From: Escherichia phage vB_EcoS-95
Length of the DNA stretch: 50,910 nt
Reading direction: 5' to 3' (one strand)
Sequence record: NC_048132.1
The translations under genes were made by a program, and so were the position numbers. Below the pieces are notes generated by a model. It ran no database searches. It was not told where the DNA came from and saw nothing but the letters and a program-made list of their open reading frames with translations. Shown here one piece after another: positions 303-47,900 of this stretch (positions within the stretch are counted from its first letter, which is position 1; each line of letters opens with the position of its first letter).

Positions 303-320
303 TTGTAAAATCCTCCTAAA

Positions 321-339
321 TAGCACTTTTTGCTAATGA
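321..339 (+). promoter_or_regulatory. Variant copy of the 19-bp box (TAGCACTTTTTGCTAATGAC); its reverse complement abuts the RBS of the minus ORF at 302
   Basis: Sequence match to the multi-copy box; TGCTAT on the minus strand lies just upstream of AGGAGG. Confidence 0.4.
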
Positions 340-365
340 CAATGCAGATAATAGCATTTTCAGGT

Positions 366-393
366 GCAAAAAAAAACCCCGCATAAGCGGGGC
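366..393 (-). terminator. Rho-independent terminator downstream of the primase gene
   Basis: Hairpin CCCCGC-ATAA-GCGGGG (377-392) followed on the minus strand by a T9 run. Confidence 0.6.
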
Positions 394-408
394 AATACTA
401 GCGGAGTT

Positions 409-1338
409 TTATAGCAGTGATTCAGGCTTGTAGATTTTTCTTTCTACGCCCTGTTTAAAATTATCGTTAACAGGCATCATTATGTCAAGACCTCTTTCCT
501 CTGCTGCGATTATCACATCACGATCATCTTTCCGGCAGACTACGCGCATTCTTCTTTCTCCTTTATATCTATGCGCAACCATTTCAAGATTTGAAGGAGT
601 AAAGCAGGCCCACACCTCTTGACCAGTTGACAAATGAACATGCTGGGAATCAACCCAATCAAGGCACAAATAGATCGTCTTATCTGTGCTACCTGTTTTA
701 ACAACAGACCCGCGCGTGTAGTCGCGAGCTAAAAACCAATCCTTTCCATCCTCATCAATGAAAAGCACGTTACACATTTCATCATCCAGCCCGTCATCAT
801 GCACCAGGTGACAAGGTAGCGCGTGAATGTATCGACCATCCTTGACGCCGCAATCATAATGACAACCTTCCGGCGGATATATCCCCTCATAAACGCTTAA
901 AGGTGTGCGATCGAATTTTAATGTTTTTGCCATCACTTTTTCGCAGCATTCATGACTTGCCTGTTTCCCGAACGAGTAACCAGAAGAACGCGAAGCGCGT
1001 TTGTTTGCTCTGATCCTGTAATCCTGCGGCACTTTTCCGAGGAAGCGGCCCAAAATGTTGATGGCCTCGCTGTAAGGTTCGCCAGTTAATTTCATTAACC
1101 AACCGATCCCCGTGTCGTTACCGCACACGTTGCAGATCGCGCCGCCGTCTCCCTCTTCATTTAGCTTATCAGTCCATCTAAAACGATCCTTACCGCCGCA
1201 GTGTGGGCAAGGCTGATGCTTTTTGTTGAAAACATCGCTATGCAGTCCGCAAATGCTTTGTAGTGCTTCACGCCATAACCCCTTCATATATGGCAAAACA
1301 TCTTCTTTCTGATAGGTCATAAAGTTTTCAGTATTCAT
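409..1338 (-). CDS. DNA primase (zinc-ribbon type)
   Basis: CPHCGGKDRFRW...CNVCG zinc-ribbon typical of phage/plasmid primases; acidic DxD-rich C-terminal half; start moved to MNTENF (RBS GAGGT) from track start 1365. Confidence 0.5.
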   Translation of the reverse strand: MNTENFMTYQKEDVLPYMKGLWREALQSICGLHSDVFNKKHQPCPHCGGKDRFRWTDKLNEEGDGGAICNVCGNDTGIGWLMKLTGEPYSEAINILGRFLGKVPQDYRIRANKRASRSSGYSFGKQASHECCEKVMAKTLKFDRTPLSVYEGIYPPEGCHYDCGVKDGRYIHALPCHLVHDDGLDDEMCNVLFIDEDGKDWFLARDYTRGSVVKTGSTDKTIYLCLDWVDSQHVHLSTGQEVWACFTPSNLEMVAHRYKGERRMRVVCRKDDRDVIIAAEERGLDIMMPVNDNFKQGVERKIYKPESLL

Positions 1339-1392
1339 AGCAACCTCAATAAAAAAGCCCAGCAAATATTATCATTTCGCTGGGCCTTATCA

Positions 1393-1869
1393 TTAGCTAT
1401 TCGTGCTGTTATCACCTTTGTAGAATCTTCCGCCTGGTTCGTAGTCTGAATTTTTGACTACGCGCAACATTTCGTATTTGTCGCAACGGGTAGTAAGAGG
1501 CTTGCCGTTAGAATCAAACCGCAGATCTGGACGACAAAACGAGGCGCGGTATCCTTTGCATCCATTATATTTGTAGTCGTTATGCACCTTTTGTGCTCCA
1601 GCGGCTGAAATCATACCACGCTTTCGCCATTGGTTAACTACTTGCTGAGATACGCGTAGACGTCGAGCCATAGCAGGGACACCGCCGTAATACTCGATCA
1701 GAATGTCAAGGCGAGATTTCAGGCTTGCTTTTACCTCATCTCGCAGGATAAGAAATCCGGTTCGGTGTTTTCGTGGCTTTTTGTCTTTACCTCGTCGCGT
1801 TCCGTTGTTACCGTTAATAGTGCGCTTGTCGATCTCACCCGTAGACACTGCAATTCGTGCATCTTTCAT
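1393..1869 (-). CDS. HTH DNA-binding protein (Cro/YdaS-like motif), candidate regulator
   Basis: GGVPAMARRLRVSQQVVNQWRKRGMIS resembles Cro/CI-type helix-turn-helix; basic N-terminus; divergent from the helicase gene. Confidence 0.4.
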   Translation of the reverse strand: MKDARIAVSTGEIDKRTINGNNGTRRGKDKKPRKHRTGFLILRDEVKASLKSRLDILIEYYGGVPAMARRLRVSQQVVNQWRKRGMISAAGAQKVHNDYKYNGCKGYRASFCRPDLRFDSNGKPLTTRCDKYEMLRVVKNSDYEPGGRFYKGDNSTNS

Positions 1870-1881
1870 CTAGTCACCTCA

Positions 1882-1924
1882 TAGCATTTTTTGTTAAAAC
1901 AGTTTATTGTAATGAGTCTATTAT
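1882..1924 (+). promoter_or_regulatory. Box promoter (TAGCATTTTTTGTTAAAAC + -10-like TATTAT at 1919-1924) upstream of helicase
   Basis: Box and -10-like hexamer at the family-typical spacing; the reverse complement of the box abuts the RBS of the divergent HTH gene. Confidence 0.5.
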
Positions 1925-1956
1925 ATACTCCAAATGGCATTTTTTAAAGGTTTAAG

Positions 1957-3954
1957 ATGATTCCAAATATCGAAAAACAAATATCAGCGTTAGGCGAGGC
2001 AGTAATAAAAAGCATCCAAGAGCGATTCACGGTTGGCAATATAGTGCCTTATCCTTATCAGTGCGTTGCGTATGCCGAGATCGCAAAGCGCATGAAAAAC
2101 TATGAGCATCCTTTCTTTGTTAAGGCTTCTGTGTCGGCTGGCAAAACATTGATGTTTGCGATGGTTGCTGCGCAATGCCGCAAAATGGGATTGAAAATGA
2201 TGGTCCTTGCTCGCCAAGCTGAAATTGTTGATCAGGATTCGGAAGAGATCAGCAATCTTGGCGTGCCAAACTCAATCTATTGCGCCGGACTGAAAACAAA
2301 AAGCGCATACTTTCCGATCGTAGTCGGTTCTGAGGGCACTGTAGTAAACGGATTGTTTAAGTCGTTAGGTGATTATGTTCCGCACGTTATCGGTATTGAT
2401 GAATGTCACCAGGTGGATTGGGAGGATCTCGCCGACGCGATAGAAAATAATGAATCTTACCAGCAGATGACCACTAAGAAGGATTTGCCTGTACTGATTG
2501 GAGAAGAACAGCAATTTGATTCCAATGGCGATCCAGTGTTCGGAACAGGGCGCACACAGTACACCGTAATAATCATGGAAATGATGCGCAGGTGTCGCGA
2601 GGCATACGGGCACGAATTGCGAATATTCGGTATGACTGGATCTGAATTTCGCGGCGTGGTTCCAATACTGGTTGAAGATAAGAACAAAAAGGGATTCTGG
2701 CGTGAGCAGGTGACTAACATAGACACAAACTACTTAATCAAATTCGGTTCTGTAGTACCAACAAATTTCGGCGACGTAGGCGACCTGGGGTATGACCTTT
2801 CAGAGTTCGAAGCCAGTAGCGAGGATGGCGTTTCAGACTTTGACGCTAAAACATTGCGCAAGATGGAAGAAAAGATCCATCAAGACGCAACAATGACACA
2901 GAAAATCATGGCTAAAGTCCATGAGATATGCAAAGACAGGAACGGAGTTTTAGTTACATGCGCAGGAGAAAGACACTGCAAGGAGGCCGCCGCCGCACTG
3001 CCGCCAGGCGTTGAATACAGGATCATAACTGGCAAAACTGGAGATAATCAGCGTAAAGAGTGGCTGAGGGAGGCATACGAGGGGAAAGTAAAATACATCT
3101 TCCAGGTACAGGCGCTTACCACTGGCGTTAACGTTCCGTTTTGGGATACTTCGGTAATACTGAGAAAGATAGGATCTCTAACATTGCTCATCCAGCTTTT
3201 GGGGCGCGGTATGCGACTGCTTAAGCAATGGCACATTGAGCAGGGATTCAAGAAAAAAGATCATCTTGTATTGGATTTTGCAGGTACTATGGATGAGTTA
3301 GGTGATTTGTATTTCGATCCAATCCTTGAGCAAGCGCAATTCCAAAAGAGATTTACAAACGGGAAAGAGCCTAAGACTTGTCCGATATGTGGAACGCTAA
3401 ACAGCTTTTACGCTCGCCGATGTATGCACGTAGACGATAGCGGGAAGAGATGCGAGCATTTTTGGACTTACAGAATTTGCGAGGACCAGGTAGATCCGAG
3501 AACGAAAAAGATAATCAAGCGCGGTTGCGGAACAAAAAACGACGTAGTTGCGAGAGTATGCCGTTGTTGCGATATTTCTCTTGTCGATCCTAACGAGAAG
3601 TTAAGCGGCAAGCACTACACCAAAAACGATTGGTGCAACGTTAAATCTTTCCGCGTTGATATGACGAAAAACCAAAAAGGAATTGTTTTTTGCTATGAGC
3701 TTGAGGCCAACGGCGACACGTTCAAGGCATACGAAAGATTTTTCCCTGAGTCAGAAAGCAACATTTGCCGGACGATATGGAGAAAAATAGCATTGCAGCA
3801 CATACCGGATCGTAAGATTGCTGGTATGGTGGCGAGCTATAGAAATGCGCGTAAAATAATGTCATACGCTCATCACATCATGCCGCCTGTACGCGTAACG
3901 CATCGCAAAAACGGCAAAGGTGAGGATAACATTGCAAAACGGGAGTTTGTTTAA
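1957..3954 (+). CDS. SF2 DExH-box helicase with C-terminal Cys-rich zinc-ribbon region
   Basis: Walker A SAGKTLMFAM, DECH motif (GIDECHQV), Cys clusters CPICG...C..C near the C-terminus; 665 aa. Confidence 0.7.
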   Translation: MIPNIEKQISALGEAVIKSIQERFTVGNIVPYPYQCVAYAEIAKRMKNYEHPFFVKASVSAGKTLMFAMVAAQCRKMGLKMMVLARQAEIVDQDSEEISNLGVPNSIYCAGLKTKSAYFPIVVGSEGTVVNGLFKSLGDYVPHVIGIDECHQVDWEDLADAIENNESYQQMTTKKDLPVLIGEEQQFDSNGDPVFGTGRTQYTVIIMEMMRRCREAYGHELRIFGMTGSEFRGVVPILVEDKNKKGFWREQVTNIDTNYLIKFGSVVPTNFGDVGDLGYDLSEFEASSEDGVSDFDAKTLRKMEEKIHQDATMTQKIMAKVHEICKDRNGVLVTCAGERHCKEAAAALPPGVEYRIITGKTGDNQRKEWLREAYEGKVKYIFQVQALTTGVNVPFWDTSVILRKIGSLTLLIQLLGRGMRLLKQWHIEQGFKKKDHLVLDFAGTMDELGDLYFDPILEQAQFQKRFTNGKEPKTCPICGTLNSFYARRCMHVDDSGKRCEHFWTYRICEDQVDPRTKKIIKRGCGTKNDVVARVCRCCDISLVDPNEKLSGKHYTKNDWCNVKSFRVDMTKNQKGIVFCYELEANGDTFKAYERFFPESESNICRTIWRKIALQHIPDRKIAGMVASYRNARKIMSYAHHIMPPVRVTHRKNGKGEDNIAKREFV

Positions 3955-4373
3955 TGGCTATAACTGATAAAGGAGATTATCTTGAGTTTTACGAAAGAGA
4001 TCCAACCGACACGAGAAAGGAAGTTAATCACCAGATAGATAGCTTTCAGTGGTTGACTTATGCTCATCCTTATTTGCTAGCGTGGCATACGGTAAACGAG
4101 AATGAGAAGTCGAAAGTAACGGCGATGATTGATCAGCAGTCCGGCTTGGTTAAGGGGGTAAGCGATTTCATCATCCTGATTGGTTCAAACGGAAAATACC
4201 CCTTTGCAGCGATTGAGATCAAACGAGTTAATAAATCAGGCAAGGGGAAAGCATCACCAGTCAGCGATGAACAAAAGGCTTTTTTGCGTCGCGTTCGCAG
4301 TTTAGGAGGATTCGCTGCGGTCGCCTACGGATTTAATCAGTTTAAGTTAGCTATTGAATACATGCTTAAATAG
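3954..4373 (+). CDS. VRR-NUC domain nuclease
   Basis: GVSDFIILIG...AIEIKRVNKSGKG...QKAFL pattern typical of VRR-NUC (PD-(D/E)XK) nucleases; start overlaps helicase stop. Confidence 0.55.
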   Translation: MAITDKGDYLEFYERDPTDTRKEVNHQIDSFQWLTYAHPYLLAWHTVNENEKSKVTAMIDQQSGLVKGVSDFIILIGSNGKYPFAAIEIKRVNKSGKGKASPVSDEQKAFLRRVRSLGGFAAVAYGFNQFKLAIEYMLK

Positions 4374-15194: not shown

Positions 15195-15466
15195 TACTTC
15201 TTGATCTCCTCACTGATAAATTTCAGCACCTGACGCAAGAAAACCTCGTTGTTGATAGTCGCTGGCAATTCTTCTTTCACTTCTTGCGGCAGATAGATAT
15301 TGCCGTGCCAGGTCAAGCAATCGTAGTTGATACGATAAGAGCAAAGCCACTCGCAATCGTTATCTGCTTCCCAAATGCAGAGTTGCAGAACATCGCCAAA
15401 ATCTTCAACAGTCAGATCCAGACCGTGACGCTTGGCGAAATTGAAAGTGGTTTTGCTGATGTTCAT
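15194..15466 (-). CDS. Hypothetical protein (first gene of the leftward block)
   Basis: 90-aa ORF with RBS AGGAG. Confidence 0.45.
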   Translation of the reverse strand: MNISKTTFNFAKRHGLDLTVEDFGDVLQLCIWEADNDCEWLCSYRINYDCLTWHGNIYLPQEVKEELPATINNEVFLRQVLKFISEEIKK

Positions 15467-15500
15467 TGCTATCTCCTGAGCGGTTCGTTTCGATGTGTGT

Positions 15501-15543
15501 AATGTACCCGATCAGACGGCCTGAGTTTTAACAAAAAGTGCTA
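15501..15543 (-). promoter_or_regulatory. Box promoter (minus; -10-like TACATT; leader CATCGAAACGAA)
   Basis: Exact reverse-complement box at 15525-15543. Confidence 0.55.
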
Positions 15544-15544
15544 T

Positions 15545-16099
15545 TTGACGGTTAGCGCCAGGATTGCGATCGAAATAATCAAAAGTAATCATTCGTAATC
15601 AAATCACGTCAAAATGATGATTGCCTTTGCAAATTTGATGAGAAAAGCAATCACGTTTAATCATTGGTTGCAGGGGAGATAGTGAAACCCTCCCCTCTCG
15701 CCTCACTTTTCCGCCTGGCTGTCAGTGGTTGTTGTCTTTTGTTCACCCCTGTTACCGATTTCAGGCGGCGTGTTTCCGCGCGGTTTTCCGGTGTAGCGAA
15801 AACGGAAAAAACAAAGAAAATCCTCTATAATACATTGAAAATAAAGATTATTTATTTATATATATCTATAATGTTTTCTTTTTGTTCTCACTGTTACAGT
15901 GCTTTTTGTTGGTTATGGTGTGGTTGTGTGTGGGCATATATGGATAGTTGCGCGCGCGGCGGATTGCATATGTATATATACTTTTTCCGGCGGATTGCGT
16001 TAACAGCGTGAACAGAAAAATAACAGCCGCGAAATCAATAACTTGCGCATGATTTTGTAGTTTTTCGATATTGGTAACGTTTTGAATACAACAAAAACA
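15545..16099. promoter_or_regulatory. AT-rich non-coding strand-switch region with AATCA-type short repeats, inverted repeats and a duplicated GGCGGATTGC element; candidate origin and control region
   Basis: No convincing ORF; TAATCA repeats 15570-15660; GGCGGATTGC twice about 32 bp apart flanking ATATGTATATATAC; T/G-rich tract TTATTTATTTAT...GTTGGTTATGGTGTGG. Confidence 0.4.
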
Positions 16100-16127
16100 T
16101 TGACACGCACCAAATAGCTTTTATAAT
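16100..16127 (+). promoter_or_regulatory. Near-consensus sigma70 promoter (TTGACA-16 bp-TATAAT) for rightward early transcription
   Basis: TTGACA at 16100-16105 and TATAAT at 16122-16127. Confidence 0.6.
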
Positions 16128-16158
16128 GCGCAAACAGTCAACAACTGGAGGAAAGGAA

Positions 16159-16623
16159 ATGGAACAGAAAACCACTAAGGACTATTGCGATTGGCTTCGC
16201 GAGCTTGGTCGCCGCCTGGCTAGTGGCGATATTGAAGAGTATAAAATGTCACTAATTGACCTGGCCGGAATGTTAAGCGGTGATGACTGCTACAAGATCA
16301 CGCGCAGTTCATCCTACAGCCGGACCATTATCAACCGCGTTCCAGAAGTAAGGGCCGCAGGTCGGGTAAGCATCAAGGTAGAGGAAACGGAAGATGATAA
16401 ATTTTACGTTTTCCGCATGGTCCGCGAATCGAAAAGGAAAATCATCACACCCGAAGAATTGCCAGCCATCAAGGCAAGGGCGATCAAAAAGTTTGCCGAT
16501 CGCTTACTGGCAGCAATCCCGAACATCGTGGACATGGAAGGGGATAAACTGGCTGGAGCTTGTGAGGGCGTAAGCCGCTACCAGGATATGATCCGCGAAA
16601 TCATCAAAGAGGAGGAGCAATAA
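16159..16623 (+). CDS. Hypothetical early protein (first gene downstream of the consensus promoter)
   Basis: Start at MEQKTTKDY with RBS GGAGG; 154 aa. Confidence 0.5.
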   Translation: MEQKTTKDYCDWLRELGRRLASGDIEEYKMSLIDLAGMLSGDDCYKITRSSSYSRTIINRVPEVRAAGRVSIKVEETEDDKFYVFRMVRESKRKIITPEELPAIKARAIKKFADRLLAAIPNIVDMEGDKLAGACEGVSRYQDMIREIIKEEEQ

Positions 16624-34892: not shown

Positions 34893-35555
34893 ATGCACTT
34901 GCCTAATGGTTCTCAAATTTTCATCGGCGTTAATATGGGTGATCCAATTCAAGCTACTGATATTTCAAACGCTAAAGATCCGGTTTTTACTGTTAGTAAT
35001 TCACAGCAGGTCAAAAAAGGTGCTTATGTTCTGATTGAAACGTCTTCCTGGGGTAAACTGGTTAGTCGTGTGTTGCGGGTAAAAGAAGTATCTGATAACG
35101 CAAGCGTAACTCTTGAAGGTGTAGACACAACCGATCAAAACGTATTTCCGGCTGGTTCTAATGCAGCAACTTTCCGAGAGGTGAAATCTTGGGTAGAGGT
35201 TCCTTGCGTACAGGATCTTGCGCAGGACGGCGGCGAGCAACAGTATTACACTTATCAGTGTTTGGCTGATGACCAGGAGCAGCAGTTACCGACTTACAAG
35301 AGCGCAGTTTCTCTTACCTACACTTTCGCGCATGAATATGATAACCCGATTTATCCGATCTTGCGCAAGGCTGAGGAATCCGGCGACGTAACCGCTTTGC
35401 GTATGTACGTTCCGAAAGCTAAAGAGATGCGTTGCTGGGCTGGCGTATTGTCTTTTAATGACATTCCGCAAACCACTATGAACGAAATGGAAACTGTTTC
35501 CCTTTCCGTATCTCTGAAAGGTCGATTTACGTTCTTACCTTCCGACGTTAAGTAA
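34893..35555 (+). CDS. Major tail protein
   Basis: 220-aa ORF upstream of the G/GT chaperone and tape measure (lambda V position); RBS AGGAGG. Confidence 0.5.
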   Translation: MHLPNGSQIFIGVNMGDPIQATDISNAKDPVFTVSNSQQVKKGAYVLIETSSWGKLVSRVLRVKEVSDNASVTLEGVDTTDQNVFPAGSNAATFREVKSWVEVPCVQDLAQDGGEQQYYTYQCLADDQEQQLPTYKSAVSLTYTFAHEYDNPIYPILRKAEESGDVTALRMYVPKAKEMRCWAGVLSFNDIPQTTMNEMETVSLSVSLKGRFTFLPSDVK

Positions 35556-35560
35556 AACAA

Positions 35561-35581
35561 GGGGCGTTGCGCCCCTTTTTT
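35561..35581 (+). terminator. Rho-independent terminator after the major tail gene
   Basis: GGGGC-GTTGC-GCCCC followed by TTTTTT. Confidence 0.6.
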
Positions 35582-35620
35582 CATTCCTGTAAAATCAATC
35601 TATCAAATAAATCAATTCCA

Positions 35621-35639
35621 CTTTTAACAAAAAGTGCTA
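35621..35639 (+). promoter_or_regulatory. Reverse-orientation box giving TGCTATAAG extended -10-like element directly abutting the RBS of the tail chaperone gene
   Basis: Reverse complement of the box; AAGGAG RBS starts 1 nt after the box. Confidence 0.45.
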
Positions 35640-35654
35640 TAAGGAGATCTTGAG

Positions 35655-46343: not shown

Positions 46344-46374
46344 CTTCAATACCCCTTAGTTGTTGTTGGCTGTA

Positions 46375-46415
46375 ACTATACACGATCCGGCAAGCCGAGT
46401 TTAGCAAAAAGTGCT
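46375..46415 (-). promoter_or_regulatory. Box promoter variant (TAGCACTTTTTGCTAAAC) for the Cor-like operon
   Basis: Reverse complement of box at 46398-46415; -10-like TATAGT downstream. Confidence 0.5.
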
Positions 46416-46419
46416 ACTT

Positions 46420-46786
46420 GTTATTTTTTGTTTTTCGGTGTTATCGGATTTAAGGCGGCGTAAATTTAGCGCAAATTTTAGCCAACATAAGAACAATAAA
46501 TAATCAATAAAATAGGTATATACATATAAAATCAATAGTTTATTTATTTATGTATGTGTATTTGTTTTTTCTTGTTATCTGTGTTTCTTGTGGTTTTGGT
46601 TGTTTGTGGTGATTTTTCTTTCTGAGTATCTGTATGTGCCATCATTCATGTGTATGTATATAATCCGGCGTACCTTAGAGAACAAGGGAACAAGAAAAAT
46701 AACACATATTAATCATTAACTTACGCGTCAAATTTGTTTTATTGCCATCTGAGAACGTTTAGAAAACAGAAAAAACAAAACAACTA
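46420..46786. promoter_or_regulatory. Second AT-rich, T/G-skewed non-coding region, paralogous to 15840-15930
   Basis: TTATTTATTTATGTATGTGTATTTGTTTTTTCTTGTTATCTGTGTTTCTTGTGGTTTTGGTTGTTTGTGGTG resembles the tract in the 15.8-kb region; AATCA repeats; no ORF. Confidence 0.4.
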
Positions 46787-46814
46787 TTGACTAAATCAAC
46801 CAAATGGCTACAAT
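46787..46814 (+). promoter_or_regulatory. Sigma70-like promoter (TTGACT-16 bp-TACAAT) for the recombination operon
   Basis: Hexamers at 46787-46792 and 46809-46814, about 30 bp upstream of exonuclease ATG. Confidence 0.55.
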
Positions 46815-46844
46815 GCACACACAAAGCAACCAGGAGCATTAAAG

Positions 46845-47900
46845 ATGAGTGATTTTAACGCCTACACTAGCGAAGAAATGAGCAATGAGCTTTATCATGA
46901 TCCTAACGCGTGGACGGCTGAATACGTCAGCGGTTCCAGCCTGGCGGAGATTTACAGCACTTGCCCGGCGTACTGGAAGTACAAACCTCGCCAGGAAACT
47001 AAGGCACTTGTTTTCGGTACGCAGTCGCATACCAATTTTGAAAGCAATGAGTTATTCGAAAAAACATATCGCCGCGCACCGTCGCAGGATGATTTTAAAG
47101 ATCTGATCACAAGTCAAACGGCGTTGGCCTCAAAGCTGAAATCTTTTGGCCTGAAAGGTACAACGGGTAAGCAATACCCCGAATTGCTGGAAATGCTGTA
47201 CAAGTGCGGTGAGGATCTCAATGTATGGTGGCTTATCGAAATGATGGCAGAATGCCAGGCAGCAGCGGACGGCGTGCAGCTAATCGACGCGAAAGATTAT
47301 GATGCCTGTGTAGCGATGCGGCGCGTACTTGAGGCAATACCTGAGCATAATGCTTGCATGAATAGCCCAACCGCGCAGCGTGAAATGTCAATATTCGGGA
47401 TCATCAATGGCGTAAAAGTTAAAGTGCGCCTTGATCACGTTGACGTAAACAAGGATGTAAAGGCCACAATCATTAACGGTTACGACGAAAAAGGCCGACC
47501 GATTTATGAAGAAGTCATCTATCCAGAAGCTGTGATTATCACTGACTATAAAACAACGGTTAGCGCAAATCCGGTTGACTTCCAGCGCCTGGCTTACAAT
47601 CACGGCTATTATCTCAAAATGGCTTTGCAGCATGATTTATTTAAAAAGGCGTATCCAGACGAGGAAAGGCCAGTAATTGTGAGATTGCTTGCTCAAGAGA
47701 AGAAAGAGCCTTACTTGCCGCTCGCATTCCGCATGAACATTGAGCAATTGAAGATCGGTCGCATCCAGTACATGAGCGTGATCAACAAGTTCAACGTTTG
47801 CCAACAGTTAGATGAATGGCCTTCGTATGCAAACGGGCAACCAGAAATTGATCTTGATACTCCTGATTGGGTGCGCGCTCAATTCAGGCAGTATCTATGA
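46845..47900 (+). CDS. Recombination exonuclease (PD-(D/E)XK, RecE/lambda-Exo-like)
   Basis: IITDYKTT and YxxxQ nuclease motifs; located upstream of ERF. Confidence 0.5.
   Translation: MSDFNAYTSEEMSNELYHDPNAWTAEYVSGSSLAEIYSTCPAYWKYKPRQETKALVFGTQSHTNFESNELFEKTYRRAPSQDDFKDLITSQTALASKLKSFGLKGTTGKQYPELLEMLYKCGEDLNVWWLIEMMAECQAAADGVQLIDAKDYDACVAMRRVLEAIPEHNACMNSPTAQREMSIFGIINGVKVKVRLDHVDVNKDVKATIINGYDEKGRPIYEEVIYPEAVIITDYKTTVSANPVDFQRLAYNHGYYLKMALQHDLFKKAYPDEERPVIVRLLAQEKKEPYLPLAFRMNIEQLKIGRIQYMSVINKFNVCQQLDEWPSYANGQPEIDLDTPDWVRAQFRQYL

What the first reader, a model, noticed from the sequence alone, without database searches (positions are those of the whole stretch)
15545..16099. AT-rich strand-switch region with iteron-like repeats: candidate replication origin and control hub
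About 550 bp without a credible ORF separate the leftward and rightward gene blocks. The region contains TAATCA-type short repeats (15570-15660), inverted repeats (TTTTCCG...CGGAAAA) and GGCGGATTGC duplicated about 32 bp apart around ATATGTATATATAC. It also carries a strongly T/G-skewed tract and several TATAAT elements, and ends with a consensus sigma70 promoter. The track ORF 15664-16011 is low-complexity and probably not coding.
Basis: partly seen in the sequence, partly recalled or inferred. Interest (0 to 1): 0.6.

Follow-up and report, generated by a model that had tools for sequence, protein, structure and literature searches.

The report
T1-like phage pac/early-promoter control region
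This is the large non-coding gap of a T1-like coliphage: it holds the likely DNA-packaging start region, and a 430-bp module with a second copy elsewhere in the genome, which is the best current candidate for the family's unknown replication origin, though that is unproven.

Summary
The window is a Warwickvirus (Drexlerviridae, T1-like), 99% identical here to phage SECphi27. ORF 15664-16011 is not conserved and not coding.

The gap has three parts:
- A leftward promoter of the family's 21-nt "DR" type (15501-15544).
- A 183-bp segment (15545-15727) carrying the AATCA/TGATT repeats. Position 1 of the T1 and TLS GenBank records falls here; for TLS that position is the pac site set by restriction mapping. 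This segment is therefore more likely the packaging start region than origin iterons.
- A ~430-bp module (15728-16158) with a paralogue at 46417-46844, upstream of recE (71% identity). This duplication is found across the family.

Each module has the most AT-rich core and the most T/G-skewed tract in the window. Each carries 3-4 copies, in both orientations, of a 24-nt "tri-AACA" motif found nowhere else in the window. The same exclusivity holds in TLS and T1. Each also has an IHF-like box and a strong rightward promoter.

Origin function is plausible (about 0.4). It resembles P4 ori/crr, and the phage primase is homologous to the primase domain of P4 alpha. It is unproven; pure early-promoter control is the main rival.

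The parts
15501..15544 (-). Leftward DR-type promoter for the leftward gene block. The DR (ATAGCACTTTTTGTTAAA) is at 15527-15544 and the -10-like TACATT at 15501-15506. The conserved leader CATCGAAACGA and the ATG at 15466 follow.
   Evidence: Matches the TLS 21-nt direct repeat (PMC11447400). The window has 20 copies against 0.58 expected. Each copy has a -10-like hexamer at a fixed distance and lies in the direction of transcription.
15545..15727 (.). Segment specific to module A, with no counterpart in module B. It holds AATCA/TGATT and GATTGC repeats (15562-15663), ATGATGATTG (15613-15622), GTTGCA (15667) and the purine-rich dyad GGGGAG..CTCCCC (15673-15695). Candidate packaging-initiation (pac) neighbourhood.
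   Evidence: The A/B alignment leaves this stretch unmatched. AATCA is enriched 7.5-fold. Position 1 of the T1 and TLS records lies within similar TGATT/GATG arrays, 162-195 nt from the first leftward ATG and 538-588 nt from the first rightward ATG. That maps to window ~15570-15670. For TLS, position 1 is the restriction-mapped pac site.
15730..15753 (-). Tri-AACA motif copy T1 (AACAGGGGTGAACAAAAGACAACA on the minus strand). It contains TGTTCACC, which equals the P4 type-1 ori octamer.
   Evidence: The pattern AACA-N3-6-AACA-N4-8-AACA occurs 6 times in the window, all within the two modules.
15754..15797 (.). GC-rich spacer with the GGCGGCGT box (15764-15771) and the short TTTTCCG dyad.
   Evidence: The box recurs as (C/G)GGCGTAAAT at two places per module across genera. 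The dyad is not conserved.
15798..15822 (+). A-rich motif copy A1 (GAAAACGGAAAAAACAAAGAAAAT). It forms an inverted pair with copy T2 across the AT core.
   Evidence: Inverted repeat I7, 15805-15820 against 15874-15889, 81% complementary. Conserved as AACAAAAAGAACAAA in other genera.
15824..15871 (.). AT-rich core (10% GC) containing TCTATAATACAT and TTATTTATTTATATATAT. It is the most conserved block across genera and a candidate unwinding element and/or -10-only promoter.
   Evidence: Together with its paralogue it gives the lowest-GC 100-bp windows of the window. This core and the left-hand promoter/leader block (15467-15551) are the only parts of the gap that BLAST detects in distant genera. 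TATA-ATA-AT is nearly invariant.
15872..15945 (+). T/G-skewed tract (80% G+T). It starts with tri-AACA copy T2 (15872-15895, minus strand) and the 13-bp palindrome CACTGTTACAGTG (15889-15901).
   Evidence: The composition is conserved across genera but the sequence is not.
15957..15998 (.). Second TATA-rich core, ATATGTATATATAC (15968-15981), flanked by two exact copies of CGGCGGATTGC.
   Evidence: Direct repeat D12. Homologous to TGTATGTATATAATCCGGCGTA in module B. The CCGGCGTAAAT box is conserved in 12 B modules.
16002..16025 (+). Tri-AACA motif copy A2 (AACAGCGTGAACAGAAAAATAACA). It contains GTGAACAG.
16033..16045 (+). IHF-like box AATCAATAACTTG, an exact match to WATCAANNNNTTR.
   Evidence: There are 6 matches in the window, and this is one of them. 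The box AAAATCAnnnACTTR is conserved at this position in nearly all A and B modules.
16049..16099 (.). Inverted pair T3 (16049-16066) and A3 (16078-16099). A3 abuts the -35 hexamer in the position of an UP element.
   Evidence: Inverted repeat I9. A relaxed tri-AACA copy sits at the homologous place in B, 46754-46777. GAAAACAGAAAAAACA is conserved.
16100..16158 (+). Rightward early promoter TTGACA-16-TATAAT (16100-16127), leader, and SD GGAGG (16147-16151). The ATG is at 16159 and opens a DUF7174 gene.
   Evidence: The only 12/12 sigma-70 match in 50.9 kb. The gene has a Pfam DUF7174 match.
46344..46844 (.). Paralogous gap, module B. It holds a leftward DR promoter (46400-46417) for a Cor-like gene. 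Tri-AACA copies lie at 46419-46442 (-), 46563-46585 (-), 46681-46704 (+) and 46754-46777 (+). It also has an AT core (~46488-46560), a T/G tract (~46560-46640) and the promoter TTGACT-16-TACAAT (46787-46814), ahead of the recE/exoVIII ATG at 46845.
   Evidence: Global alignment with A gives 71% identity and a score of 243, against 88 +/- 12 for shuffles. It is conserved over >=80% of its length in 137 phage records.

Best explanation
The gap 15467-16158 is the composite cis-acting control region that T1-like phages carry at their conventional genome end. It has three parts.

(1) A leftward DR-type promoter at 15501-15544. This is read directly from the sequence and the pattern of the DR family.

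(2) A 183-bp segment unique to this locus (15545-15727), packed with AATCA/TGATT repeats. It is most likely the neighbourhood of the pac site, where terminase starts headful packaging rightward. This is inferred from position: the T1 and TLS records begin in the equivalent segment, and for TLS that start is the mapped pac site.

(3) A ~430-bp module (15728-16158) that exists in a second, anciently diverged copy in front of recE (46417-46844).

Each module is a platform of protein-binding sites. It carries 3-4 copies, in both orientations, of a motif built from AACA units spaced about one helical turn apart (core GTGAACA / GTAACAG). These bracket an extremely AT-rich core and a strand-skewed T/G tract. 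An IHF-like bend site follows, then a strong sigma-70 promoter whose -35 hexamer abuts the last motif copy.

My preferred mechanism is inferred, not shown. A phage-encoded sequence-specific DNA-binding protein occupies the motifs at both modules. The Cro-like HTH protein encoded next to the primase is the candidate. Binding sets the activity of the two early promoters and, with IHF and transcription, opens the AT core so that the P4-alpha-like primase and host replisome can start DNA synthesis. In that reading the modules are a pair of origin-like sites analogous to P4 ori and crr.

The promoter and pac parts are well supported. I put origin function of the module at about 0.4.
For: Identity and context:
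- The region is 99% identical to Warwickvirus SECphi27. 41 phage records cover at least 80% of the queried stretch, in megablast of 15400-16200 and in blastn of 15467-16150.

Promoters:
- 12/12 consensus at 16100-16127, unique in the window.
- The DR element occurs 20 times against 0.58 expected, each with a -10-like hexamer at fixed distance.

pac:
- The T1 record begins 162 nt from its first leftward ATG and annotates 1-2800 as a repeat region.
- The TLS record begins at the pac site set by restriction mapping, inside a GATT-repeat array.
- SU57 authors state that pac of T1-likes lies in this UTR.
- The segment is absent from module B.

Module duplication:
- A and B align at 71% identity over ~430 bp, about 13 SD above shuffles.
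- In distant genera the window's A core matches their tail-fibre/exoVIII gap.
- B is conserved over >=80% of its length in 137 records.

Motif exclusivity:
- Window: 6 of 6 strict tri-AACA hits lie in the modules.
- TLS: 3 of 3, against 0.39 expected genome-wide.
- T1: all 6 TGTAACA in the genome lie in its two modules.
- Motif variants change together across the copies within a genome.

Composition and host-factor site:
- The two AT cores and the two T/G tracts are the extreme outliers of the window.
- The IHF-like box is conserved.

P4 analogy:
- The P4 record annotates GGTGAACA as the ori type-1 repeat in two separate cis regions, ori and crr.
- The window primase is homologous to the P4 alpha primase domain, E 4e-15.

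The TLS paper reports that the origin is unknown and that no iterons were found.
Against: - No experiment or read-level data places an origin, a transcription start or a packaging cut in this phage.
- No initiator was found. The window has no homologue of the P4 alpha helicase or C-terminal ori-binding domains.
- The 'helicase' is RadD-like SF2, not a replicative helicase.
- P4 ori/crr do not align with the modules beyond chance.
- Exact GTGAACA is only weakly enriched in this window: 2 of 8 copies lie in module A and none in B.
- There are no DnaA boxes.
- In T1 two motif copies overlap the -10/+1 region of the early promoter, which is a classic operator arrangement.
- Both modules sit in front of the strongest sigma-70-type promoters, so pure transcriptional control explains most features.
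- The mapping of T1/TLS position 1 onto the window rests on distances and weak local alignments, z 2.1 and 4.6. The TLS pac site was fixed partly by resemblance to P22 pac. How T1 position 1 was set could not be checked.
- GC skew only follows gene orientation.
Confidence: 0.55

Rival explanations
1. Transcription only. The two modules are extended regulatory regions of the phage's two immediate-early sigma-70 promoters. The tri-AACA copies are operators or UP-like, curved-DNA elements. A phage regulator, together with IHF, uses them to boost and later shut off early transcription. Replication starts elsewhere or by recombination.
For: - Both modules end in the strongest sigma-70-type promoters.
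- Copy A3 abuts the -35 hexamer like an UP element. In module B, copy T1 abuts the leftward DR promoter.
- In T1 two TGTAACA copies in inverted orientation straddle the -10/+1 region of the early promoter.
- A Cro/YdaS-like HTH protein is encoded in the window.
- No initiator protein and no DnaA boxes were found.
Against: - About 400 bp of conserved upstream DNA is long for a sigma-70 promoter in a compact genome, where another divergent promoter gap is only 87 bp.
- The best-conserved block is the AT core about 270-310 bp upstream of the promoter, not the promoter-proximal part.
- The strongly strand-skewed tract has no obvious role in promoter control.
Confidence: 0.35
2. The whole span 15545-16099 is one replication origin, and the TAATCA repeats and GGCGGATTGC copies are its iterons.
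For: The repeats are real and locally enriched. An AT-rich core lies nearby.
Against: - The TAATCA array lies in the only segment not shared with the paralogous module, and coincides with position 1 of the T1 and TLS records.
- The GGCGGATTGC duplication is missing in the same-genus phage atuna.
- There are no DnaA boxes.
- The motif that is shared by both modules and exclusive to them is a different one.
Confidence: 0.08
3. The AT-rich ATATA-repeat core, not the AATCA array, is the pac site.
For: - The MSK paper (PMC8421802) reports that Wietzorrek et al. 2006 pointed to five ATATA repeats in T1 while looking for pac.
- ATATA is enriched: 16 in the modules against 1.2 expected.
- The core lies only 200-290 bp from T1/TLS position 1, which may be within the error of restriction mapping.
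Against: - The core is duplicated at module B in every genome examined. T1 and TLS each show one submolar pac fragment.
- Rtp and MSK are reported to lack the ATATA repeats.
Confidence: 0.1
4. The gap encodes a product: either the 115-aa ORF 15664-16011 or a structured non-coding RNA.
For: An open frame exists in this phage and in SECphi27. TATAAT hexamers and a small hairpin followed by a T run (15889-15910) could frame a short transcript.
Against: - The frame is broken in atuna, vojen, W011D and T1.
- No Pfam or PHROG match.
- No Rfam match.
- RNAalifold on 12 B modules gives -6 kcal/mol and only pairs motif copies with each other.
- Fold z-scores run from -0.05 to -1.6.
Confidence: 0.02

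Closest known systems
Non-coding genome-end region of coliphages T1 (NC_005833) and TLS (NC_009540), including their pac neighbourhood
   Same: - Same family and the same position, between the leftward and rightward small-gene blocks.
- Similar length: about 700 bp in T1 and about 780 bp in TLS.
- Same order of elements: DR element, TGATT/GATG repeat array, AT-rich TATA core, motif copies, then a rightward TTGAC promoter.
   Different: - The nucleotide sequence is barely alignable outside the AT core.
- The motif variant differs: TGTAACA in T1, GTGAACA in TLS, and mixed GTGAACA/GTAACAG/TAACAG here.
- Neither published record annotates the module, its duplication or the motif.
Satellite phage P4 bipartite origin (ori + crr) bound by the alpha primase-helicase
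   Same: - Two separate cis regions.
- Each has several copies, in both orientations, of an octamer (GGTGAACA) next to AT-rich and A-rich runs.
- The window contains that octamer (15740-15747) and GTGAACAG (16006-16013).
- Its primase is homologous to the alpha primase domain.
   Different: - No homologue of the alpha helicase or C-terminal ori-binding domain is present.
- The regions do not align beyond chance.
- The motif here is a longer, looser tri-AACA unit.
- The modules are separated by about 20 kb one way and 30 kb the other way round a circular map, not 4.5 kb.
- Origin activity is untested.
Iteron-type origins with IHF site and autoregulated promoter (pSC101 ori, P1 oriR/incA, lambda ori)
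   Same: Repeated binding motif, an AT-rich unwinding candidate, an IHF-like site, and a promoter that abuts or overlaps a motif copy. This comparison rests on general knowledge of these replicons.
   Different: - No Rep or O-type initiator gene is adjacent.
- No DnaA boxes.
- Motif copies are dispersed and inverted rather than tandem.
- There are two full copies of the whole module.
Transcription-activated phage origins (T7 primary origin; T4 oriF/oriG)
   Same: A promoter-like element next to an AT-rich stretch in a lytic phage that lacks a classical initiator. Multiple origins per genome are also known. This comparison rests on general knowledge.
   Different: The -10-like element in the core has no -35 and is not strictly conserved. 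The downstream transcript would be U/G-rich, which does not favour stable R-loops. That last point is my inference.
Clustered strong early promoters of T-odd/T7 phages with UP elements
   Same: A consensus sigma-70 promoter preceded by an A-rich UP-like sequence at the entry end of the early genes.
   Different: Only one canonical promoter per module passes a consensus scan in A. The conserved upstream region extends to about -400.

Membership tests
Iteron-type / P4-like replication origin | Several copies of a specific repeat that could bind an initiator | tested here: met
   The tri-AACA motif occurs 3-4 times per module and only in the modules. This is replicated in TLS and in T1 with TGTAACA. 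The binding protein is unknown.
Iteron-type / P4-like replication origin | Adjacent AT-rich DNA unwinding element | tested here: met
   15824-15871 is 10% GC. The cores of A and B give the lowest-GC 100-bp windows of the 50.9-kb window.
Iteron-type / P4-like replication origin | Cognate initiator or origin-binding protein encoded by the element | tested here: not met
   Only the primase domain of P4 alpha has a homologue. No match was found to its helicase or C-terminal DNA-binding parts. A Cro-like HTH protein next to the primase is only a candidate.
Iteron-type / P4-like replication origin | Host-factor sites (DnaA boxes, IHF) | tested here: inconclusive
   No DnaA boxes, even with a relaxed pattern. 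One exact IHF consensus lies at 16033, and the box is conserved across modules.
Iteron-type / P4-like replication origin | Origin activity (initiation mapped here, or autonomous or phage-dependent replication) | not testable with these tools
   No replication data were found for any Drexlerviridae. GC skew only follows gene strand.
pac site of a headful-packaging T1-like phage | Lies where virion DNA ends or the submolar pac fragment map in characterised relatives | tested here: met
   Position 1 of the T1 and TLS records maps to window ~15570-15670, by distance from both flanking start codons and by weak local alignment. For TLS this position is the restriction-mapped pac site. The precision of the original mapping is limited.
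pac site of a headful-packaging T1-like phage | Unique in the genome | tested here: met
   15545-15727 has no counterpart in module B or elsewhere in the window.
pac site of a headful-packaging T1-like phage | Terminase cuts here in this phage | not testable with these tools
   No reads or virion-end data are available. One relative's record (XY3) starts at window-equivalent 15682, but the basis for that start is unknown.
Sigma-70 promoter | -35 and -10 hexamers with 16-18 nt spacing, upstream of a gene and conserved in relatives | tested here: met
   TTGACA-16-TATAAT, 12/12, lies 32 nt upstream of the ATG at 16159. TTGAC and a -10 hexamer are retained in the other Tempevirinae A and B modules; in T1's A module the -10 is poor.
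T1-like 21-nt direct repeat (TLS DR) | Consensus aaATAGCACnnnTTGnTAAAA, oriented with transcription, about 76 nt upstream of a start codon | tested here: met
   15527-15544 on the minus strand is an exact match and lies 78 nt upstream of the ATG at 15466.
Structured non-coding RNA | Rfam match, or a conserved, covarying, unusually stable fold | tested here: not met
Protein-coding gene (ORF 15664-16011) | Reading frame conserved in relatives, or a match to a known family | tested here: not met

The most novel reading that the evidence does not exclude
T1-family phages replicate from a pair of paralogous, roughly 430-bp origin modules, one beside pac and one in front of recE. The pair works like P4 ori plus crr. 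A stand-alone DNA-binding protein (not an alpha-type fusion) recognises the module-exclusive GTGAACA/TGTAACA-type repeats. It melts the AT core and recruits the alpha-like primase and the host replisome. The same binding events switch the two immediate-early promoters. This would identify the replication origin of T1, one of the classic T phages, which recent genome papers on the family still report as not found.
Probability: 0.3. Interest if true: 0.7.

Novelty: new variant of a known kind. Interest (0 to 1): 0.5.

Why it matters
T1 is one of the original T phages, and its relatives are widespread laboratory and industrial contaminants as well as therapy candidates. Their replication origin, pac sequence and early transcription control have still not been defined. 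A 2024 re-annotation of TLS states that no iterons or origin could be found.

This analysis shows that the large genome-end gap is one of two ancient paralogous modules marked by a motif found nowhere else in three genomes. That gives two short, concrete DNA targets and one motif to test. It also separates the likely packaging signal from the likely replication or transcription platform.

If the modules are origins, they would be a bipartite system related in logic to P4 ori/crr, but with the recognition function separated from the primase. If they are only operators, they define the early regulatory switch of the family. Either result would help phage engineering, for example in designing packageable or replicating cargo for T1-like vectors.

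Tried and rejected
- Rfam at gathering and permissive thresholds, and tRNA/tmRNA scans: nothing.
- RNAalifold on 12 module-B sequences, and DNA folds of six sub-segments: no significant structure. The T-form/A-form inverted repeats are therefore not explained as hairpins.
- ORF 15664-16011 and the Hanrivervirus-annotated leftward CDS in the equivalent gap. The first is not conserved. The second reads through the DR promoter, shows weak codon-position bias (16:10:23) and is broken in vojen. Both were rejected as genes.
- DnaA boxes, Chi and GATC clustering: none in the region.
- GC-skew profile: it switches only where gene orientation switches, so it is uninformative.
- A third divergent gap, between the regulator/primase and helicase genes (1870-1956), considered as an alternative origin: it is only 87 bp and holds a DR promoter.
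- P4 homology: ori/crr against the modules is no better than shuffles. Alpha's helicase and C-terminal domains have no homologue in the window.
- Search for copies of the region on E. coli chromosomes or plasmids (satellites or hijackers): none.
- Literature: no transcriptome, origin mapping or precise pac sequence for Drexlerviridae in the searchable library. Wietzorrek 2006 could not be opened, and Roberts 2004 (subscription journal) was not read.
- K-mer enrichment in the modules mostly returned AT-rich words and was less informative than the composite motif.
Full report
**What the window is.** The window is a T1-like siphovirus of the genus Warwickvirus (Drexlerviridae, Tempevirinae). The stretch 15400-16200 is 99.0% identical to Escherichia phage SECphi27. 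41 phage records cover at least 80% of the queried stretch, in megablast of 15400-16200 and in blastn of 15467-16150. The finding sits in the gap between a leftward block of small genes (first ATG at 15466) and a rightward block (ATG at 16159, a DUF7174 protein). The gap spans 15467-16158, or 692 bp.

**Checking the observation.**
- AATCA occurs 7 times in 15545-15727, against 5.1/kb window-wide. Three copies sit at 10-nt spacing.
- CGGCGGATTGC occurs twice, 31 nt apart, around ATATGTATATATAC.
- 15872-15945 is 80% G+T. Only the paralogous tract at 46.5 kb is more skewed.
- TTGACA-16-TATAAT at 16100-16127 is the only 12/12 sigma-70 match in the window.
- The TTTTCCG/CGGAAAA dyad has 7-nt arms, is not conserved and does not fold unusually.
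- 'AT-rich' is true mainly of a 48-bp core, 15824-15871, at 10% GC. The stated span as a whole is 39.5% GC against 44.8%.
- ORF 15664-16011 is open only here and in SECphi27. It is interrupted in atuna, vojen, W011D and T1 and matches no Pfam or PHROG family.

**Left edge: a promoter of the family's repeated type.** The minus strand at 15527-15544 reads ATAGCACTTTTTGTTAAA. This is the 21-nt direct repeat that the TLS re-annotation describes as of unknown function (PMC11447400). The window has 20 copies against 0.58 expected, always pointing in the direction of transcription. When the copies are lined up, each is followed at a fixed distance by a (C/T)ATAAT-like hexamer, a conserved leader (CATCGAAACGA), a Shine-Dalgarno sequence and a start codon. 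I therefore read 15501-15544 as the leftward promoter of the gap.

**The region has a paralogue.** A self-comparison found a second copy at 46.4-46.8 kb. This is also a divergent gap, between a Cor-like lipoprotein gene (leftward) and the exonuclease VIII/recE gene (rightward). Global alignment puts A 15728-16158 against B 46417-46844 at 71% identity. The score is 243, against 88 +/- 12 for composition-preserving shuffles. The shared order of elements is:
- a T-rich motif copy;
- a GGCGGCGT box;
- an A-rich motif copy;
- TCTATAATACAT and TTATTTATTTAT (the AT core);
- a second T-rich motif copy;
- the T/G tract;
- a second TATA-rich core;
- a CCGGCG box;
- an A-rich motif copy;
- AATCAnTAACTTR;
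- an inverted motif pair;
- TTGAC(-35)...TAnAAT(-10) and GGAG.

In B the leftward DR promoter abuts the module directly. In A, 183 bp (15545-15727) are inserted between them.

The duplication is family-wide. In Tlsvirus, Henuseptimavirus and a Klebsiella phage, the window's A core finds their tail-fibre/exoVIII gap. Module B is covered over at least 80% of its length in 137 records, at 66-75% identity between genera, which is high for non-coding DNA. T1 and TLS have both modules.

**The A-specific insert and packaging.** The T1 record starts inside the equivalent gap. Position 1 lies 162 nt from the first leftward ATG and 538 nt from the first rightward ATG, and 1-2800 is annotated as a repeat region. 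I take that repeat region to be the terminal redundancy. TLS position 1 is the pac site that its authors placed by restriction mapping of the submolar pac fragment, then fixed by resemblance to P22 pac. It lies 195 and 588 nt from the flanking start codons. Both positions fall inside arrays of TGATT/GATG repeats:
- T1: ..AATGATGAGATGTGATT|GTTGCATGG..
- TLS..GATGATGATTGATGTGTG|AGATTTTGTGATTGAAATTGATTTGATTTGATTAG...

The window has AATGATGATTG, TTTGATGAG, six AATCA and GTTGCA in 15577-15672.

By distance from the flanking genes, these positions map to window ~15570-15670. Local alignments are weak, at z 2.1 for T1 and 4.6 for TLS. The SU57 paper also says that pac of T1-likes lies in this UTR.

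pac should be unique, and one submolar fragment is reported for T1 and TLS. This is an inference from position, not a mapped cut in this phage. An older suggestion, known to me only second-hand, pointed to ATATA repeats in T1, which is the AT core. The duplication of that core argues against it.

**The shared module: a motif found only there.** The T-rich and A-rich boxes are the two orientations of one motif. It consists of three AACA units about one helical turn apart. Examples are AACAGCGTGAACAGAAAAATAACA at 16002-16025 and, on the minus strand, 15730-15753 and 15872-15895.
- In the window, the pattern AACA-N3-6-AACA-N4-8-AACA occurs six times on both strands of 50.9 kb: three in A and three in B. 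A relaxed fourth copy abuts each -35 hexamer.
- In TLS the same pattern has three hits against 0.39 expected, all in its two modules. Four of its eight GTGAACA are there too.
- In T1 the unit is TGTAACA. All six copies in the 48.8-kb genome lie in its two modules, and two of them straddle the -10/+1 region of the early promoter.

Across 12 B modules the copies keep their places, and their variants (GAACA, AAACA, TAACA) change together within a genome.

Folding gives no support for a hairpin or an RNA. RNAalifold returns -6 kcal/mol, and DNA-fold z-scores run from -0.05 to -1.6. Rfam finds nothing. The simplest reading is a set of sites for one sequence-specific DNA-binding protein.

The module also has an exact IHF consensus at 16033-16045, conserved as AAAATCAnnnACTTR. 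The two AT cores are the most AT-rich 100-bp windows in the window, and the two T/G tracts are the most keto-skewed 75-bp windows.

**What the module does.** Two readings fit.

The origin reading:
- repeats in both orientations bracket an unwinding-prone core;
- there is an IHF-like site and a promoter abutting a repeat;
- two cis regions exist per genome, as in P4, whose record annotates GGTGAACA as the ori type-1 repeat in both ori and crr;
- the window contains that octamer (15740-15747) and GTGAACAG (16006-16013);
- its primase is homologous to the P4 alpha primase domain (E 4e-15);
- module B heads the recombination/replication gene cluster;
- 2% of a compact genome is spent on these modules, while another divergent promoter gap needs only 87 bp.

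Against the origin reading, and for transcription control only:
- no initiator was found, since the alpha helicase and C-terminal domains have no homologue;
- the 'helicase' is RadD-like;
- P4 ori/crr do not align with the modules beyond chance;
- exact GTGAACA is only weakly enriched in this window;
- there are no DnaA boxes;
- the modules precede the strongest sigma-70-type promoters;
- the T1 arrangement looks like an operator.

The two roles are not exclusive, because iteron replicons routinely combine them. I rate origin function at about 0.4 and pure transcriptional control at about 0.35. The candidate binder, a Cro/YdaS-like HTH protein encoded next to the primase, is a guess.

**Comparison with what is known.** The region itself is known in the sense that T1, TLS and about a hundred relatives carry it and that pac was mapped to it. 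In the papers I could read, nobody describes the duplication or the module-exclusive motif. The TLS paper states that no iterons were found anywhere and that the origin is unknown. I could not open Wietzorrek 2006 and did not read Roberts 2004 (subscription journal), so prior description there cannot be excluded. I file it as a new variant of a known kind: a phage control/origin-type region with unusual bipartite, paralogous architecture. It works like P4 ori/crr or an iteron origin in layout. Membership fails on the initiator criterion and is untested for activity.

**Verdict.** Interest is 0.5. The region is ordinary as a locus, but it offers a concrete, testable candidate for the unknown origin and early switch of the T1 family.

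Noticed in passing
window, 20 sites (e.g. 4370+, 11535-, 16880+, 21530+, 22824+); list: The family's 21-nt DR behaves like an unusual promoter class. ATAGCAC-TTTTTG-TTAAAA is followed by a 19-22-nt spacer, which is usually a GC-rich perfect dyad of variable sequence (for example GCCAGGtgtaaaaaCCTGGC or CGGGGttatcggCCCCG). A (C/T)ATAAT hexamer follows at fixed distance, then a conserved leader CATCGAAACGA. The DR often overlaps the stop codon of the previous gene. The dyad keeps its symmetry while its sequence changes, which suggests a structural role.
   Followed up: partly
window 35540-35640 (minus strand) and 320-400 (plus strand): Two DR copies are followed within about 40-70 nt by a terminator-like GC hairpin with a T run, rather than by a gene. 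The one at 35640 lies antisense within the rightward late-gene block. They may be very short transcripts or attenuators.
   Followed up: no
GenBank records MG0656xx labelled 'Campylobacter phage': Between 15 and 18 records labelled as Campylobacter jejuni phages match this coliphage region and module B at 72-89% identity, with T1-like genome sizes. They are probably contaminant or mislabelled Drexlerviridae.
   Followed up: no
window 412-1365 (-), 1396-1869 (-), 1957-3951 (+), 3954-4370 (+): The replication module is atypical. The primase equals only the N-terminal domain of P4 alpha. It sits next to a Cro/YdaS-like HTH protein, and divergent from a RadD-like SF2 helicase plus a VRR-NUC nuclease. 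No replicative helicase or initiator was recognised.
   Followed up: partly
whole window; modules 15728-16159 and 46344-46844: GATC is over-represented in the window (298 sites, 5.85/kb, against about 3.9/kb expected). It is absent from the shared part of module A and occurs once in B. This is not significant on its own, given the AT-rich composition.
   Followed up: partly
L011/L012/L015 (Hanrivervirus herni, slyngel, grams), locus 1049-1375; also records such as tunus and vB_Eco-B1.2 with five 'hypothetical proteins' under the 801-nt match: Several GenBank records annotate CDSs inside this non-coding gap. The Hanrivervirus one reads through the DR promoter, shows weak codon-position bias and is broken in vojen. 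These annotations are probably spurious.
   Followed up: partly
window 1870-1956: The third divergent gap of the genome, between the regulator/primase and helicase genes, is only 87 bp. It holds one DR promoter and no copy of the module.
   Followed up: yes
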